IMG/VR virus record: IMGVR_UViG_3300050821_006235
Coordinates: 22,078 to 86,077 of that record
Length of the DNA: 64,000 nt
Strand: one strand, 5' to 3'
DNA from: a virus
Under the pieces are notes generated by a model. The model searched no databases. It had not been told where the DNA came from and saw only the letters and a list, made by a program, of their open reading frames with translations. The translations under genes and the position numbers were made by a program. The stretch's first letter is position 1. Each line of letters opens with the position of its first letter. Of this stretch, positions 8,165 through 53,169 are shown piece by piece.

Positions 8165-8368
8165 GTGGCGGCCCGCGATGTGGACCGCTACCCGCAGGTG
8201 CTCGACACCAGCACCGATGTGTGGCACCGGCGGCCGGACACCGATGGCGGGGGCGGCCCCAGCTACCCGACGGTGTGCGGCCGGACCGTCACCACACACA
8301 CGGTGGACGAGCCGGAAGGCGTGCCGGAAGGGTGGCAGACCCGCTGCCGGGAAGGGTGCTTCGCTTGA
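8165..8368 (+). CDS. Hypothetical protein
   Basis: Packed ORF, TTGA overlap with next gene. Confidence 0.5.
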   Translation: MAARDVDRYPQVLDTSTDVWHRRPDTDGGGGPSYPTVCGRTVTTHTVDEPEGVPEGWQTRCREGCFA

Positions 8369-49944: not shown

Positions 49945-50532
49945 CTATCCGGCGAGGGCGCGCAGGTGCCGGGGGACGATCTCAGGGATGCGGGCCTGCT
50001 GCTCTGCGCTCAGGTCAAGGTCGGTGAGGATCGCCCGGATGACCTGCGCGACGAGGGCGCCCTGCTGCTCGGCGAGCCGGACACGGCGTTCCTCGATCCC
50101 GGCGCGGATCGCTTCGGAACAGACCTTGACGAGGTGGGTGCGTTCCTGCTGGTACAGCTTGAGCCAGATGCTGGGGGCGGCCTCTTCGGTCTCTCCCCAG
50201 TCCTCGCCGCCGGTCTTACGCCGCGTCTTGCCCCACACGAGCGGGTGCTCGCCAGAACCGGGATCCGTTTCAAGGTTCTCGATCTCCCGGACACGGTCAC
50301 GCAGCCACGCGACGTGCCCGGCGGTCCACTGGACTTCGTCGAGGAGTGCTTCGGTGGCGGTCGTCTCGACCTTACGGCCGTAGGTTTCGACGAGGTCGCG
50401 GGCACGGCTCTCGGCGATGACACTCACGGCCTTCTTGCCGAGGTGCATGCGGCACTTGTCGGAGCCTGTTACGGATGGCCCTTTGCAGGGCTGCCCGTCC
50501 TTACGGTTCGAGGTACACGTGGGGGGTTGCAT
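49945..50532 (-). CDS. terS: Terminase small subunit (putative)
   Basis: C..RKDGQPC..CRMHLG N-terminus; directly upstream of terL. Confidence 0.75.
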   Translation of the reverse strand: MQPPTCTSNRKDGQPCKGPSVTGSDKCRMHLGKKAVSVIAESRARDLVETYGRKVETTATEALLDEVQWTAGHVAWLRDRVREIENLETDPGSGEHPLVWGKTRRKTGGEDWGETEEAAPSIWLKLYQQERTHLVKVCSEAIRAGIEERRVRLAEQQGALVAQVIRAILTDLDLSAEQQARIPEIVPRHLRALAG

Positions 50533-50565
50533 GGGGTCACCCCAAATCAGGGGGTTGCATGGGGT
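50522..50565. repeat. 16-bp direct repeat at terS start
   Basis: GGGGGTTGCATGGGGT at 50522 and 50550. Confidence 0.75.
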
Positions 50566-51130: not shown

Positions 51131-51348
51131 GGCCACCACTCCTGTCGGCTGGATGCGGCCCGCTGCTGCATCTTCGCGGGCACACCCGGGTAGATCTTCC
51201 AACCGGCCGGAACCGCTTCGGCGAAGGGCTGACGGTGGCGGGCGAAGGCCTCGCCGACCCGTGACGGCTCACCCCACGGGCGAGGCTCGCGATAGTCCGC
51301 CTCGATCGCGTCGAGGATGTCGTCGTACGCCGCAGGAGGGAAGGTCAT
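51100..51348 (-). CDS. Hypothetical protein
   Basis: ATGA coupling. Confidence 0.5.
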   Translation of the reverse strand: MTFPPAAYDDILDAIEADYREPRPWGEPSRVGEAFARHRQPFAEAVPAGWKIYPGVPAKMQQRAASSRQEWWPWLRGSTHPT

Positions 51349-51632
51349 CGAATCACCGCCGCTTCAACGGCCGCCCTCGCCGCTTCGATCGTCCACGCCG
51401 ACACCTCAGCGAAGAAATGCGGAGGTCCCGGTTCGTCAGCCGCGCCGGGCAGCTTCATCACGGCGTTCTCGGCGTTCATGTCGGGTACCGGGGTGTATCG
51501 GGCGGTGATCCAAAGGTTGTGATGGACGAGCAGGTCGCCATCCTCGTAGACCTCTCTCACCGTCCCGGACATGACCATGCCCCGCGCCCGAACCAGGACC
51601 CGATCCCCGGGCCGGAACTCGCTACCGCTCAC
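51345..51632 (-). CDS. Hypothetical protein
   Basis: FRPGDRVLV SH3-like start. Confidence 0.55.
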   Translation of the reverse strand: MSGSEFRPGDRVLVRARGMVMSGTVREVYEDGDLLVHHNLWITARYTPVPDMNAENAVMKLPGAADEPGPPHFFAEVSAWTIEAARAAVEAAVIR

Positions 51633-51742
51633 TCGGTACCGGCCAGGGTCTGGGCGAGCCCGGCGACAACGTCCGTGAGGAGTGCCCGGTACCCGCCAAG
51701 ACGGCCGACGATGTGGCGCATGGTCACCTCACCTATGAAGGA

Positions 51743-51856
51743 TGGTGCGGGACGCGGCCGGATTCGAACCGGGCGAGGGTTGCCGACAGAGCCTTACGGC
51801 TCCCGCCCAGCGGGTCGCGATCCCGCTGCAATAGGCCGCTCTGCCACACGTCCCGC
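51743..51856 (-). tRNA. Atypical tRNA-like RNA, 114 nt, apparent anticodon CGC (Ala) on class II body
   Basis: TGGCAGAGCGGCCTATTGC D-arm, GCGGG/CCCGC anticodon stem, GGTTCGAATCC T-loop, 10-bp acceptor stem, encoded CCA. Confidence 0.75.
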
Positions 51857-51888
51857 ACGCGTCGTCAGCTTAGCGTGGGTACCTGCGG

Positions 51889-52200
51889 TCAGGGCTTCGT
51901 CGCGGGCGCCGGAGCGGGCACGGCCGGTACGAGCGCGGCCACGGCGTTCGCGGCCGTACCCAGGTCCGCTGCGGCGGAGGTGAGCCCGGACAGGTCCAGC
52001 GGCGCGGGGGTCTTCGCGGCGAGCGCGGCGGAGATGCCCGCCACGGCGGTGTTGAGGGTTGAGGTGCTGGCGGCGATGCTGGCGACGGCCGCCGCGATCT
52101 CTTCTTGCTGCGTCATGATGATCCCCTGGTTGTGAAGGACTTCGGTGAGGGTCTCGGCGATGTCGTCGAGGCGGTCGTTCGAGGATCTGCGGCCGAACAT
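51889..52200 (-). CDS. Ala-rich hypothetical protein
   Basis: GGAGG RBS. Confidence 0.7.
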   Translation of the reverse strand: MFGRRSSNDRLDDIAETLTEVLHNQGIIMTQQEEIAAAVASIAASTSTLNTAVAGISAALAAKTPAPLDLSGLTSAAADLGTAANAVAALVPAVPAPAPATKP

Positions 52201-52212
52201 GCGGTCCTCCGC

Positions 52213-52815
52213 TCAGCGCCTGCGTTTCCGCGCCTTCGGGGCGGCGATCACCCGGGGCATAGACATGACGTTCGGGCTGGTCGCCCGGTCCGTCCACTGG
52301 GTGCCGTGGCGGGACAGGTGCAGACGTCTGCGCAGGGTTTGCGGTGCGCCCGTCCGCAGATGCAGCCGCCGGTTGATGGTCTTGGGTCTGCCGGTGCGAA
52401 GCCGGTAGAACGACTCGCGTCTCAGCAGGTGGTGCTGTGAGCGCCTCATGCTCCGGTGAGCGGAGCGAAGGGCGTGGAACCGCCGCGACCTGGTCATGTG
52501 CCGGTTGCCCAGGTGGTGGTGTCGGCGGGCGTGCGGGCCGGTGTGGACACGCCGCCTGCGGTGATGCAGCGAGTGCCGGTGTGTGGTGTGGTGCCTGCGG
52601 CGGTGGTGTGCGCTGCGCCGCCTGTGGCCATGGCCTCGCCGGTGCGGGTGTGAAGCCCAGTACTTCTTGAGCGCGTCGCTGATCTTCTTGCGGGTCGCCG
52701 CCGACATCGGGTGGCCCTTGTGCGGGTGATGCCTGCCCGTCCGCGAGTGCGAGTGCGAACTGTGGTGCGTGGAACGGCGGCGGTGGGTGCTGTGACGCCG
52801 AGGACCCCACGTCAT
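52213..52815 (-). CDS. His/Arg-rich very basic protein with NUMOD3-like motif
   Basis: KGHPMSAATRKKIS; fills gap between neighbours; G-rich RBS. Confidence 0.65.
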   Translation of the reverse strand: MTWGPRRHSTHRRRSTHHSSHSHSRTGRHHPHKGHPMSAATRKKISDALKKYWASHPHRRGHGHRRRSAHHRRRHHTTHRHSLHHRRRRVHTGPHARRHHHLGNRHMTRSRRFHALRSAHRSMRRSQHHLLRRESFYRLRTGRPKTINRRLHLRTGAPQTLRRRLHLSRHGTQWTDRATSPNVMSMPRVIAAPKARKRRR

Positions 52816-52830
52816 GCCACCACCCCCGCA

Positions 52831-53169
52831 CTACTCGATCGTCAGGGTGCCAACGCCACCGGGCGGAATGAAGATCTCCGGGTTGTCGATCACCATCACC
52901 CAGATCGCCCACACACCCACGGCTACGACGAACCCTCCCGAGCCTGGCCCGACAAGGCACTGCGCCATGTACTCCGGGCCTGGGTTCGTTGTCCACGACC
53001 CGAGCTGCCAGTCCGACGCCGCCGGTTTCACGTTCGGCGCGATGAACGCCATCTTCACCACATCGGCGGTCGGGTTGTAGTTCGGCGAACCGTTGAGAAT
53101 GGCGCTGATCGGCACCTGCACCTGAAGGGTCGCCAACGAGGACATCACGATGTTGACGAGTTGGGCCAT
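52831..53169 (-). CDS. Putative virion protein (Ig/BppU-like beta domain)
   Basis: CLVGPG..GVWAIWVMVIDNPE; TGATG coupling. Confidence 0.65.
   Translation of the reverse strand: MAQLVNIVMSSLATLQVQVPISAILNGSPNYNPTADVVKMAFIAPNVKPAASDWQLGSWTTNPGPEYMAQCLVGPGSGGFVVAVGVWAIWVMVIDNPEIFIPPGGVGTLTIE

What the first reader, a model, noticed from the sequence alone, without database searches (positions are those of the whole stretch)
51743..51856. Non-canonical tRNA-like RNA: 10-bp acceptor stem, oversized variable arm, Ala anticodon on a Ser/Leu-type body
Seen: GCGGGACGTG pairs with CGCGTCCCGC before A-CCA; class II D-arm; loop ATCGCGA (anticodon CGC, unusual A32); about 35-nt variable region with a GAGCC-GTAA-GGCTC hairpin; T-stem of 4 bp plus a bulged pair; no G3:U70 Ala determinant. 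Pairing is retained throughout, which argues against simple decay. Inference: a mis-decoding allo-tRNA-like molecule, an anticodon-nuclease decoy, or a structural RNA in the late transcript.
Basis: partly seen in the sequence, partly recalled or inferred. Interest (0 to 1): 0.72.

Follow-up and report, generated by a model that had tools for sequence, protein, structure and literature searches.

The report
Odd serine-type phage tRNA, alanine anticodon
A soil phage carries a conserved gene for a misshapen serine-type transfer RNA that bears an alanine anticodon, so it may read alanine codons in an unorthodox way or act as a tRNA look-alike.

Summary
On the minus strand, 51856..51743, lies a 114-nt tRNA-shaped gene. 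It has a 10-bp terminal helix (12 bp with flanking bases) before ACCA, a serine-type class II D arm and a 5-bp/7-nt anticodon arm (U33, CGC). The variable region is about 36 nt and the T stem has one bulged C. There is no G3:U70.

ARAGORN and whole-window Rfam scans miss it. Rfam's tRNA model passes on the short stretch (34.4 bits, cut-off 29), using an inner 7/5 register.

It is not decay. A contig from another soil-metagenome study carries the same 120-nt unit in a different gene context. All 8 differences sit in or beside the anticodon arm and preserve 5 bp, a 7-nt loop, U33 and CGC. Homology ends exactly at ACCA in two foreign contexts.

No other copy was found in IMG/VR, GenBank phages or plasmids, or 401 genomes of a Streptomyces family.

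Best reading (0.45): a working, probably serine-charged GCG decoder whose anticodon arm evolves fast. Main rival (0.3): a non-decoding tRNA mimic. It is not an allo-tRNA by definition.

No expression data exist. The scan noted similar class II tRNA-likes with "wrong" anticodons on other DNA, but never this sequence.

The parts
51743..51856 (-).
   Evidence: Sequence read. Rfam tRNA model scores 34.4 bits over 51853..51749. My model R1 scores 55.8 bits over 51858..51743.
51743..51862 (-). 120-nt unit conserved as a block in a contig of another metagenome study, with different DNA on both sides
   Evidence: record 23 of run X4 aligns to 51743-51862 with 6 substitutions and 2 indels. It has 132 other letters in place of 354 upstream and an unrelated loose end below 51743.
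51847..51856 (-). 5' strand of the terminal (acceptor) helix, idx 1-10. The inner 7 nt (51847-51853) form the acceptor in Rfam's register.
51747..51756 (-). 3' strand of the terminal helix, idx 101-110
51743..51746 (-). ACCA directly after the 10-bp helix. Homology to the foreign contigs stops exactly at its last A.
   Evidence: In one search, tables 7 and 8, the loose ends of X3 and X4 both begin at 51743.
51828..51844 (-). D arm: 3-bp stem GCA/UGC and 11-nt loop GAGCGGCCUAU (A14, G15, G18 G19, A21, C11:G24)
   Evidence: It is closest to the tRNA-Ser(UGA/CGA) D arms of a Streptomyces genome.
51810..51826 (-). Anticodon arm: 5-bp stem and 7-nt loop AUCGCGA. The anticodon CGC lies at 51819..51817.
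   Evidence: In the X4 variant it is rebuilt as ACGGG-GUCGCAC-CUCGU, keeping U33 and CGC.
51775..51809 (-). Oversized variable region. A hairpin at 51807..51785 has up to 9 bp, one bulged G and a GUAA loop. A roughly 10-nt unpaired linker, GGCAACCCUC, follows at 51784..51775.
   Evidence: Constrained fold. Rfam treats the region as a 33-nt insertion.
51757..51774 (-). T arm: loop UUCGAAU and a 5-bp stem with bulged C86 (position 51a). The alternative is 4 bp plus a C.C mismatch.
   Evidence: Alignment. The two forms have equal energies.
51889..52200 (-). Upstream gene (103 aa, Ala-rich, no family match). Its stop codon lies 32 nt before the element.
   Evidence: GC3 frame plot, ORF list, Pfam none.
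51629..51721 (-). Downstream 30-codon ORF. Its ATG lies 21 nt after ACCA behind AGGUGAGG, and its stop overlaps the GTG start of the 95-aa ORF 51345-51632.
   Evidence: Read. ORF list.
52213..52815 (-). His/Arg-rich 200-aa gene whose homologue stays next to the element in the X4 contig. Its three database relatives carry a NUMOD3 DNA-binding motif.
   Evidence: X4 record 23 also covers 52217-52394.

Best explanation
This is a real phage gene for a non-canonical, serine-type class II tRNA that carries the alanine anticodon CGC.

It has no promoter or terminator of its own. It is therefore made as part of the late transcript, between the fibre-type genes and the terminase genes, and must be cut out by the host's tRNA-processing enzymes.

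It keeps every nucleotide that builds the tRNA elbow. In the 7/5 register, with one bulged C in the T stem, it has the normal 12-bp acceptor/T branch. The extra 3-5 bp are then leader-trailer pairing.

It lacks G3:U70, so AlaRS should ignore it. It has a serine-type D arm, C11:G24, a GGA-type acceptor start and a long extra arm. SerRS is therefore the most likely charging enzyme, since it does not read the anticodon.

It would then read GCG codons, which are abundant in this 68% GC genome, and insert serine.

The likely payoff is a GCG decoder built unlike the host's tRNA-Ala(CGC). Such a decoder could stay usable when host tRNAs are attacked or limiting. The fast, structure-preserving turnover of its anticodon arm fits such a conflict.

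Shown: the fold, the tRNA-model match, conservation as a unit, the compensatory changes, and the absence of G3:U70.
Inferred: processing, charging by SerRS, use on the ribosome, and the benefit to the phage.
For: 1. Rfam RF00005 scores 34.4 bits against a cut-off of 29, E = 4e-6, full length 1-71. The alignment shows U8, A14, G15, G18 G19, A21, G53-C61, UUCGAAU, and C48 opposite G15.

2. The element fills a 167-nt gap between same-strand genes. No sigma-70-type promoter or intrinsic terminator was found in 51300-52900.

3., X4 record 23 (another study and sample):
- It holds the whole unit 51743-51862.
- It has 0 differences in idx 1-29 and idx 49-114.
- It has 8 differences in idx 30-48.
- G31-C47 becomes A-U, a change on both sides of the pair.
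- A one-base deletion in the loop and a one-base insertion in the 3' stem strand together keep a 5-bp stem and a 7-nt loop.
- U33 and CGC are kept. Position 37 stays a purine (G to A).
- The 26:44 pair changes from A:U to G:A.

4. Chance estimates:
- 8 events falling within 19 or fewer of 120 nt: about 5e-6.
- No change in 101 nt at the divergence of the flanking genes (9-14%): 7e-5 to 4e-7.

5. In both X3 and X4 the similarity stops exactly at the last A of ACCA, and the downstream genes differ.

6. The D arm matches serine-type tRNAs of a Streptomyces genome (UG-CCC-GAGCGGCCUAA-GGG-A), not leucine-type.

7. That genome's tRNA-Ala(CGC) has G3:U70 and the loop UUCGCAU, so the phage loop differs at positions 32, 37 and 38. 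Phage tRNAs with altered anticodon loops have been proposed to escape host anticodon nucleases (PMC10264068; abstract and passages read).

8. Other serine-like class II tRNAs occur with non-serine anticodons or 31-36-nt extra arms, and four of them pass Rfam's tRNA model:
- L057: two tRNAs with CCG. L014: UCC.
- L158 and L163: UAC. L162: CUU. L159: UAG.

9. A published abstract states that hairpin aptamers grafted onto allo-tRNA-based amber suppressor tRNAs leave them translationally active (PMC7590224; abstract start only).
Against: - No RNA evidence of any kind. No holder run is on record as RNA.
- Only one full-length homologue was seen, and only as a table of differences. The body's identity could reflect recent transfer rather than purifying selection.
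- ARAGORN rejects the element.
- The predicted minimum-energy fold (-58.8 kcal/mol) is not the cloverleaf (-44.7, or -52.6 when constrained). It pairs the D-arm strand GGCAGAGC with GCUCUGUC of the extra arm.
- The extra region is far longer than in the host-type serine tRNAs seen (16-19 nt) and has a 10-nt unpaired linker.
- The T stem needs a bulge.
- In the 7/5 register the discriminator is C, whereas all five serine tRNAs seen in the Streptomyces genome have G.
- G73 requires an 8-bp acceptor, giving a 13-layer branch as in tRNA-Sec. A review (PMC7609411; passages read) says that feature weakens EF-Tu binding.
- The register ending in the encoded ACCA gives a 14-15-layer branch, which no known elongator has.
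- A32 and G37 next to C36 are unusual; this is from my general knowledge.
- Serine at alanine codons would also damage the phage's own late proteins.
- GCG codons of terL, portal and the 195-aa gene align with Ala in relatives in 69% of 217 cases, and with Ser in 7.4%. For the other three Ala codons Ser is 3.2%. Fisher p = 0.03, but the counts are not independent. There is therefore no sign of recoding.
Confidence: 0.45

Rival explanations
1. It is a non-decoding tRNA mimic. The mature RNA keeps the long 10-12-bp terminal helix and the encoded ACCA end. It is recognised by tRNA-binding proteins such as processing enzymes, the CCA enzyme, a synthetase, a nuclease or another defence protein. It works as a sponge, decoy or regulator rather than on the ribosome.
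For: - The helix is 10 bp before ACCA and 12 bp with the flanking GU/AC.
- Similarity in two foreign contexts ends exactly at ACCA, as expected if CCA is the functional 3' end.
- Other tRNA-likes with the same D arm have long terminal helices:
  - L063 has a 13-bp stem followed by UCCA and no normal anticodon arm.
  - A 130-nt family occurs in 24 of 201 genomes of a Streptomyces family. Its terminal stem is 13 bp with changes on both sides of pairs, and its 11-bp arm ends in a GAGGU-type loop that cannot decode.
- A phage relative (L075, TerL 81% identical) carries YrlA-like permuted tRNA mimics upstream of its terminase genes. They score 32.7 and 23.5 bits, below the cut-off of 69.
- A 14-15-layer branch would not fit the translation machinery (established knowledge; tRNA-Sec discussion in PMC7609411).
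Against: - The anticodon arm keeps exactly the decoding geometry (5 bp, 7 nt, U33, CGC, purine 37) through compensating changes. A scaffold RNA does not need that.
- A decoy for a nuclease aimed at tRNA-Ala(CGC) should copy that tRNA's loop. Instead the loop differs from the Streptomyces example at positions 32, 37 and 38, and differs between the two phage variants.
- Leader-trailer pairing also occurs beside ordinary-looking tRNAs such as L057, so a long helix in the DNA does not prove a long helix in the mature RNA.
- Model R1, built from the Streptomyces-family RNAs, scores ordinary serine-like tRNAs as high as this element or higher (50-68 bits against 55.8). It therefore does not show kinship.
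- No Ro60/TROVE gene was found in this phage or in four relatives (0 of 5).
Confidence: 0.3
2. It is a cis-acting signal in the late transcript. The tRNA-shaped fold draws RNase P and other tRNA-processing enzymes, which cut the polycistronic RNA between the fibre-type genes and the terminase genes. This sets different stabilities or translation for the two halves. The excised RNA has no role of its own.
For: - It sits inside an operon-like run of same-strand genes with no promoter or terminator nearby.
- The next start codon is 21 nt behind it.
- The linker CCCUC could pair with the Shine-Dalgarno sequence that follows it. This is read from the sequence and is speculative.
Against: - A cutting signal needs the acceptor/T domain only. 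It does not need a preserved anticodon loop, an anticodon, or a 26:44 pair.
- The unit keeps its sequence while both neighbouring genes change. This argues that the RNA itself, not its position, is what is kept.
Confidence: 0.1
3. It is a relic or recombination module. Either it is a captured serine tRNA gene that drifted and is no longer used, or its 3' 66 nt serve as an attachment or recombination site, as tRNA 3' halves often do.
For: - ARAGORN rejects it.
- It has an odd extra arm, a bulged T stem and an unusual loop.
- X3 record 18 carries only the 3' 66 nt (idx 49-114, 0 differences). Another 408 letters stand where the 5' half and spacer should be. That block, from the anticodon arm to the CCA end, is the part integrases classically use (general knowledge).
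- The element lies at a mosaic boundary: both flanks differ between contigs.
- TerL relatives lack it: nhmmer found no hit in 80 loci, and only fragments of 30 nt or less were found in 5 whole records.
Against: - All stems are intact.
- There are no changes in 101 nt, while neighbouring coding DNA differs by 9-14%.
- The changes that do occur are compensatory.
- I saw no integrase beside it (PHROGs on 10 neighbouring ORFs; Pfam on the 6 window ORFs scanned), and it lies in the structural gene block.
- The X3 piece could not be read, so its meaning is open.
Confidence: 0.1

Closest known systems
Bacterial class II tRNA-Ser (Rfam RF00005)
   Same: - The D arm is UG-NNN-GAGCGGCCNAN-NNN-R with C11:G24.
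- The acceptor starts with GGA in the 7/5 register.
- It has a long extra arm, a canonical T loop and the elbow nucleotides.
- It passes Rfam's tRNA cut-off.
   Different: - The anticodon is CGC (Ala), not a Ser anticodon.
- The extra region is about 36 nt with a 10-nt linker, against 16-19 nt in the Streptomyces examples.
- The T stem has a bulged C.
- The discriminator is C in the 7/5 register, where the five serine tRNAs seen have G.
- The terminal helix continues 3-5 bp beyond the acceptor.
- The loop has A32 and G37.
allo-tRNA (Mukai et al., NAR 2017, PMC5389517; abstract and passages read)
   Same: - Both are serine-identity-type tRNAs with a long extra arm that carry non-serine anticodons.
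- Both are found in soil bacteria and some phages.
- Both are proposed missense suppressors or regulatory RNAs.
- Both are missed by standard tRNA finders.
   Different: - allo-tRNAs are defined by an 8/4 or 9/3 split of a 12-bp branch and a tRNA-Sec-like D arm (long stem, tetraloop).
- This element has a 3-bp D stem with an 11-nt loop.
- No register here gives 8/4 or 9/3 without a mismatch or bulge.
- Its extra region is larger.
Bacterial tRNA-Sec and its variants with a bulge at 51a (PMC5389517; review PMC7609411)
   Same: - With G109 as discriminator the branch is 8 + 5 = 13 layers, as in bacterial tRNA-Sec.
- The T-stem bulge falls at position 51a. The paper describes that position for actinobacterial tRNA-Sec forms.
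- Both have a long extra arm and serine-type charging logic.
   Different: - The anticodon is CGC, not UCA.
- The D arm is not the 6-bp/4-nt type.
- Rfam's tRNA-Sec model gives no match at E up to 10.
- I did not look for a selenocysteine system.
Phage tRNAs with anticodon-loop changes proposed to resist host anticodon nucleases (van den Berg et al., eLife 2023, PMC10264068; passages read)
   Same: The anticodon is kept while loop positions next to it differ from the host-type tRNA and between phage variants.
   Different: - Those are otherwise ordinary tRNAs with cognate identity.
- Here the whole body belongs to another amino-acid class.
- No nuclease target is known for tRNA-Ala(CGC) in this host group.
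YrlA / bacterial Y RNA-like tRNA mimics (Rfam RF02553)
   Same: - Both are tRNA-elbow mimics on a long terminal stem.
- A related phage (L075) has sub-threshold YrlA-like modules in the region upstream of its terminase genes.
   Different: - YrlA modules are circularly permuted (T arm, closed acceptor hairpin, D arm) and have no anticodon arm.
- This element has the normal order and a full anticodon arm.
- It gives no YrlA match at E up to 10.
- There is no Ro60/TROVE gene in the phage.
Deliberately mistranslating tRNAs of Streptomyces and Kitasatospora (tRNA-ProX/ProA type).
   Same: Both are actinomycete-world tRNAs in which the anticodon and the charging identity disagree.
   Different: - Those are class I proline-type tRNAs with a dedicated synthetase.
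- No synthetase gene was seen among the ORFs I scanned next to this element.

Membership tests
tRNA (Rfam RF00005) | Covariance-model score at or above the curated gathering score (29 bits) | tested here: met
   34.4 bits, E = 4e-6, model positions 1-71, on window 51735-51865. The same model gave no match when the whole window or 401 nt was scanned.
tRNA (ARAGORN definition) | Detected as a tRNA at default thresholds | tested here: not met
   0 genes in the window and 0 in the 86,077-nt record. Lowered thresholds gave hundreds of calls (noise). I did not check whether the element was among them.
Canonical elongator tRNA | 12-bp acceptor/T branch (7 + 5) | tested here: inconclusive
   It is possible with the inner 7 bp and a 5-bp T stem with bulged C86. 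The helix continues to 10-12 bp, and the mature ends are unknown.
Canonical elongator tRNA | 5-bp anticodon stem, 7-nt loop, U33, purine 37 | tested here: met
   Present here and kept in the X4 variant through compensating changes.
Canonical elongator tRNA | Elbow and core nucleotides (U8, A14, G15:C48, G18 G19, A21, U54-A58, G53-C61) | tested here: met
   All are present in the Rfam alignment.
tRNA-Ala | G3:U70 wobble pair in the acceptor stem | tested here: not met
   The third pair is A-U in the 7-bp register and G-C in the 8-bp and 10-bp registers. The only wobble is U9-G102, in the wrong orientation and place. The Streptomyces tRNA-Ala(CGC) does have G3:U70.
tRNA-Ser (identity set recalled for bacterial SerRS) | Long extra arm; C11:G24; G2:C71; G73 | tested here: inconclusive
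   The long arm and C11:G24 are present. G2:C71 holds in the 7-bp register. G73 holds only in the 8-bp register, and the 7-bp register has C73. Charging was not tested.
allo-tRNA | 8/4 or 9/3 composition of a 12-bp branch | tested here: not met
   The registers available are 7/5 with a bulge, 8/5 with a bulge, 10/4 with a mismatch, or 10/5 with a bulge.
allo-tRNA | tRNA-Sec-like D arm (long stem, tetraloop) | tested here: not met
   The D stem is 3 bp (4 with G13.U22) and the loop is 11 nt. The definition is taken from PMC5389517.
tRNA-Sec | UCA anticodon and a match to RF01852 | tested here: not met
   The anticodon is CGC. No RF01852 match appears in the table at E up to 10.
YrlA (RF02553) | Permuted order (T arm, acceptor hairpin, D arm) and a model match | tested here: not met
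   The cloverleaf order is normal. No match at E up to 10.
130-nt tRNA-like RNAs of a Streptomyces family (alignment A1, unnamed) | 13-bp covarying terminal stem; 11-bp middle arm with a GAGGU-type loop | tested here: inconclusive
   The element shares the D arm, the TGC...GCA extension next to the inner stem, and a 12-bp helix. Its middle arm, however, is an ordinary 5-bp/7-nt anticodon arm. Model R1 gives 55.8 bits but scores ordinary serine-like tRNAs equally.

The most novel reading that the evidence does not exclude
The element is a working 'identity-swapped' phage tRNA. It has a serine-charged body and reads the very common alanine codon GCG.

Because it lacks G3:U70, it would also escape the cell's Ser-tRNA-Ala proofreading. 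Its anticodon arm is being reshaped in an arms race with a host factor that targets anticodon loops.

It would be one member of a wider, undescribed set of serine-like tRNA-shaped RNAs with giant extra arms and long, covarying terminal helices. That set is scattered through soil phages and about one in eight genomes sampled from a Streptomyces family.
Probability: 0.25. Interest if true: 0.85.

Novelty: new variant of a known kind. Interest (0 to 1): 0.6.

Why it matters
If this RNA is charged with serine and used on the ribosome, a phage would be deliberately blurring the meaning of one of its host's commonest codons. Alternatively, it would be supplying a decoder that host defences cannot recognise. 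Either case adds a natural example to the small set of tRNAs whose anticodon and identity disagree.

If it is instead a non-decoding mimic, it belongs with the Streptomyces-family RNAs seen here and points to a tRNA-shaped RNA class with no known function.

In practical terms, standard annotation (ARAGORN, and Rfam at genome scale) misses it. Such genes are therefore probably under-counted in phage and soil genomes.

The anticodon arm changes fast around a fixed anticodon while the rest of the RNA does not change at all. This pattern gives a concrete, testable hypothesis about conflict over tRNAs in actinomycete phages.

Tried and rejected
Detection
- ARAGORN at default settings found nothing in the window or in the whole 86-kb record.
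- Relaxed thresholds produced hundreds to more than a thousand calls, which I treated as noise and did not mine.
- Rfam at gathering threshold on 64 kb and at E up to 10 on 401 nt found nothing. Only the 131-nt scan found the tRNA match.

Homologues by neighbourhood
- TerL relatives in IMG/VR: 97 candidates, 80 kept.
- nhmmer with the element found nothing in those 80 loci.
- tblastn of seven neighbouring proteins was run on all 80 loci, but I printed only the first 20 (L072-L091). In those, only TerL and the 195-aa protein matched.
- ARAGORN on 12 of the 80 loci found one ordinary tRNA-Thr.
- A DNA search of 5 whole related records gave only fragments of 30 nt or less.

Homologues by pattern
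- IMG/VR with a D-loop plus T-loop pattern gave 70 loci, none a homologue.
- Three further IMG/VR patterns (extra-arm hairpin plus T arm; T arm plus 3' strand; D loop plus UCGC plus T loop) gave 0 hits each.
- The one metagenome scan gave 1 hit and the one genome scan gave 5 hits. All are other tRNA-likes.
- Not found: 0 of 401 genomes of the family of G006 at E up to 1e-5; GenBank phages; plasmids.
- The element's own record may be left out of these collections by design.

Expression
- No RNA holder listed.

Other ideas tested
- Private recoding of GCG: not supported.
- Antisense partner to the anticodon arm: 5 matches with up to 3 mismatches against 2.26 expected. The only exact match is the element itself.
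- Own promoter or terminator: none.
- Ro60/TROVE partner: 0 of 5 records.
- Kinship to the Streptomyces-family RNAs by covariance model: not discriminating.
- Neighbouring proteins: no Pfam or PHROG family for the 103-aa, 95-aa and 200-aa genes.

Literature
- Searches for allo-tRNA; phage / long variable arm / mistranslation; phage-encoded tRNA / variable arm; Streptomyces / tRNA-like; and actinobacteriophage / variable arm found no description of such an element.
- Supplementary files of papers were not opened. The supplementary tRNA lists of PMC5389517 could hold similar sequences.
Full report
WHAT IS THERE

The element lies on the minus strand of the window, 51856..51743. I number it idx 1-114, with window position = 51857 - idx.
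- Terminal helix: idx 1-10 (GCGGGACGUG) pair with idx 101-110 (CGCGUCCCGC). One pair is a U-G wobble. ACCA follows.
- The GU just upstream can pair with the AC of ACCA, giving 12 bp.
- Then come U, G, and a 3-bp D stem (GCA/UGC) around the loop GAGCGGCCUAU.
- A follows, then a 5-bp anticodon stem with the loop AUCGCGA (U33, CGC).
- The extra region is about 36 nt.
- The T arm has the loop UUCGAAU.

IS IT MORE THAN CHANCE?
- Folding energy alone is unremarkable for 72% GC RNA: z = -1.67, and 11 of 200 shuffles fold as well.
- The predicted minimum-energy fold is not the cloverleaf. It pairs GGCAGAGC of the D arm with GCUCUGUC of the extra arm: -58.8 kcal/mol, against -44.7 for the plain cloverleaf and -52.6 for a fold with the four arms enforced.
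- The tRNA-specific pattern is significant. Rfam's tRNA model gives 34.4 bits (cut-off 29), E = 4e-6, full length, when 131 nt are scanned.
- The same library found nothing in the whole window or in 401 nt. I attribute this to its speed filters.
- ARAGORN finds no tRNA in the window or in the whole 86-kb record.

REGISTERS
- Rfam's alignment uses the inner 7 bp (GGACGUG/CGCGUCC, idx 4-10 and 101-107).
- Its T stem has five pairs with C86 bulged (position 51a). C82 then sits opposite G15. All elbow nucleotides are present.
- In that register the branch is the normal 12 bp. The discriminator is C108, and the outer 3-5 bp are leader-trailer pairing.
- With G109 as discriminator, as in serine tRNAs, the acceptor has 8 bp and the branch 13 layers, as in bacterial tRNA-Sec.
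- With A111 followed by the encoded CCA, the branch has 14-15 layers.
- The sequence cannot decide between these registers.
- The extra region folds best as a 9-bp hairpin with one bulged G and a GUAA loop (idx 50-72). A roughly 10-nt unpaired linker, GGCAACCCUC, follows.

CONTEXT
- The window is part of an 86-kb IMG/VR virus record, about 68% GC, estimated 82% complete.
- A GC3 frame plot shows minus-strand genes on both sides.
- A 103-aa gene stops 32 nt before the element. A 30-codon ORF starts 21 nt after ACCA and is coupled to a 95-aa ORF.
- Further downstream lie a 195-aa protein (PHROG 3678), the large terminase, and a portal-NUDIX-MuF fusion.
- No sigma-70-type promoter or intrinsic terminator was found in 51300-52900.
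- The RNA must therefore be cut out of a longer late transcript.
- There is no other tRNA in the record.

CONSERVATION
- The stretch 51200-52400 is held whole by one soil-metagenome run, the probable source. It is held in part by runs of two other studies. None is an RNA run.
- I laid their contigs on the stretch.
- X4 record 23 (1032 nt) holds 51743-51862 with six substitutions and two indels.
- All eight differences lie in idx 30-48: A30>G, G31>A, A36>G, loss of G41, a U inserted between C44 and C45, C47>U, and U48>A.
- Read together, they turn GCGGG-AUCGCGA-CCCGC into ACGGG-GUCGCAC-CUCGU.
- One pair changes on both sides (G-C to A-U). One pair becomes G.U.
- The loss in the loop and the gain in the stem keep 5 bp and 7 nt.
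- U33 and CGC stay. Position 37 stays a purine. The 26:44 pair goes from A:U to G:A.
- idx 1-29 and idx 49-114 are identical.
- Neighbouring coding DNA differs by 16 of 178 and 34 of 250 positions.
- By simulation, eight events within 19 or fewer of 120 nt has probability about 5e-6.
- No change in 101 nt at 9-14% divergence has probability 7e-5 to 4e-7.
- Upstream, that contig has 132 other letters in place of 354. The 103-aa gene is missing, and the contig then continues with a homologue of the 200-aa gene.
- Downstream, similarity stops exactly at the last A of ACCA.
- X3 record 18 (761 nt) matches idx 49-114 without any difference and also stops at that A, with yet another downstream sequence. 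Upstream it has 408 letters where 68 are expected. I could not read them.
- The unit is therefore kept as a block while its surroundings change, and its 3' edge is the CCA end.
- Caveats: this is one full homologue, seen only as a difference table from contigs. X3 and X4 come from one sample.

SEARCHES ELSEWHERE
- No copy was found in 80 loci around TerL relatives or in five whole related records.
- None was found in IMG/VR by four patterns.
- None was found in GenBank phages or plasmids, or in 401 genomes of the family of a Streptomyces genome.
The contigs of three distant relatives of the 200-aa protein could therefore not be fetched. Those relatives carry a NUMOD3 DNA-binding motif.

RELATED ODDITIES FOUND ON THE WAY
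The same D arm occurs in other serine-like class II tRNAs or tRNA-likes.
- L057 has two tRNAs with CCG. L014 has one with UCC.
- L158 and L163 have the loop CCUACAC. L162 has CUU. L159 has UAG with a 31-nt extra arm.
- Those last four pass Rfam's tRNA model at 49-51 bits but are missed by ARAGORN.
- L034 has GAG with a 34-nt extra arm. L063 has a 13-bp terminal stem followed by UCCA and no normal anticodon arm.
- A 130-nt RNA occurs in 24 of 201 genomes sampled from the family of G006.
  - It has a 13-bp terminal stem, an 11-bp middle arm with a GAGGU-type loop, a long extra arm and a T arm.
  - Of 37 predicted pairs, 19 show changes on both sides.
  - Its flanks are mostly unrelated: 16 and 11 of 276 locus pairs share a tblastx hit.
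  - The neighbours are housekeeping genes of many kinds.
  - Rfam's tRNA model gives it 27.4 bits, below the cut-off.
- A model built from that family scores the phage element 55.8 bits. It also scores ordinary serine-like tRNAs at 50-68 bits, so it shows shared tRNA-Ser features, not membership.
- A TerL relative (L075) has, 4 kb upstream of its TerL gene, tandem permuted tRNA-like modules. They give sub-threshold YrlA matches of 32.7 and 23.5 bits (cut-off 69) and a tRNA match of 29.0 bits.
- No Ro60/TROVE gene is found in this phage or in four relatives.

IDENTITY
Comparison was with the tRNAs of one Streptomyces genome, G006. It is not known to be the host.
- The D arm matches tRNA-Ser(UGA/CGA). 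It does not match tRNA-Leu.
- All five serine tRNAs there have G73 and extra arms of 16-19 nt.
- That genome's tRNA-Ala(CGC) has G3:U70 and the loop UUCGCAU.
- The phage element has no G3:U70 in any register. Its loop differs from the host-type loop at positions 32, 37 and 38, and so does the variant's.
- GCG codons in three conserved phage genes align with Ala in relatives about as often as other Ala codons do. Ala: 69% of 217 for GCG, against 73.5-81.6% for the others. Ser: 7.4% against 3.2%. Fisher p = 0.03 on non-independent counts.
- GCG therefore means alanine in this phage's genes.

HOW IT MOST LIKELY WORKS
My best reading, at 0.45, is a processed and working tRNA.
- It is probably charged by SerRS. 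That enzyme ignores the anticodon and reads the long arm and acceptor. This is established knowledge, summarised in PMC7609411.
- It would read GCG.
- The changes in the anticodon arm are structure-preserving and anticodon-preserving. A decoder under pressure from something that recognises anticodon loops would show this pattern. That idea is in print for ordinary phage tRNAs (PMC10264068).

The main rival, at 0.3, is a non-decoding mimic that keeps the long helix and the encoded CCA.
- It draws support from the exact CCA boundary and from the long-stem RNAs described above.
- It does not explain why the decoding geometry is kept.

A pure processing signal and a relic or att-type module get 0.1 each.

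COMPARISON AND NOVELTY
- The element passes the Rfam tRNA test.
- It fails the tests that define tRNA-Ala, allo-tRNA, tRNA-Sec and YrlA.
- It works most like an allo-tRNA: a serine-type body with a foreign anticodon. It is built differently.
- I rate it a new variant of a known kind.
- My literature searches found no description of it. Supplements were not opened.

LIMITS
- There are no RNA data.
- There is one homologue.
- The host is unknown.
- The mature ends are unknown.
- Charging and decoding are inferred only.

Noticed in passing
L160:6604-6736 (Streptomyces sp.), L161, and loci L172-L196: A roughly 130-nt tRNA-shaped RNA family occurs in 24 of 201 genomes sampled from one Streptomyces family. 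It has a 13-bp terminal stem with changes on both sides of pairs, a serine-type D arm, an 11-bp middle arm whose loop always holds a GAGGU-like (Shine-Dalgarno-like) motif, a long extra arm and a T arm. Of 37 predicted pairs, 19 show compensatory changes. The flanks and neighbouring genes are unrelated between genomes. Rfam's tRNA model scores it 27.4 bits, below the cut-off, and no other Rfam family reaches its gathering score in the scans run.
   Followed up: partly
L075:1927-2154: A complete 98-kb relative (TerL 81% identical) carries tandem circularly permuted tRNA-like modules (T arm, closed acceptor hairpin, D arm) about 4 kb upstream of its TerL gene. They give sub-threshold YrlA matches (32.7 and 23.5 bits, cut-off 69) and a tRNA match of 29.0 bits. 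ARAGORN sees nothing. There is no Ro60/TROVE gene in that record.
   Followed up: partly
L057:7308-7396 and 8185-8278; L014:1400-1495: Viral contigs carry well-formed serine-like class II tRNAs (G73, long extra arm) with non-serine anticodons. L057 has two with CCG (Arg). L014 has one with UCC (Gly). ARAGORN names them Arg and Gly.
   Followed up: no
L158:125-229, L163:6168-6272, L162:7613-7716, L159:4117-4216, L034:1024-1127: These class II tRNAs have 31-36-nt extra arms. ARAGORN misses them, and Rfam's tRNA model scores four of them at 49-51 bits. L158 and L163 share the loop CCUACAC (C at position 33, UAC). L162 has CUU with A73 and CCA. L159 (Catenulispora) has UAG. L034 has GAG.
   Followed up: no
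L063:7588-7710; L005, L010 and L042; L050; L045: These viral tRNA-likes have the same D arm and T arm but no regular anticodon arm. L063 has a 13-bp terminal stem followed by UCCA. L005, L010 and L042 are three contigs with the same 120-nt element.
   Followed up: no
window 50522-50537 and 50550-50565: Two exact 16-nt direct repeats (GGGGGTTGCATGGGGT on the plus strand) lie 28 nt apart. One spans the start of the 195-aa (PHROG 3678) gene and the other lies just upstream of it, ahead of the large terminase. They could be a regulatory or packaging-related site.
   Followed up: no
window 52213-52815 (-): The 200-aa His/Arg-rich protein has only three database relatives (E up to 0.001), each with a NUMOD3 DNA-binding motif. 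Its homologue stays next to the tRNA-like unit in the foreign contig, while the 103-aa gene between them is absent there.
   Followed up: partly
L078:4702-7149 and L079:1314-3662: In two relatives the TerL match is split into two pieces about 0.9 kb apart. This may mean an intein, an intron or an inserted gene within the large terminase gene.
   Followed up: no
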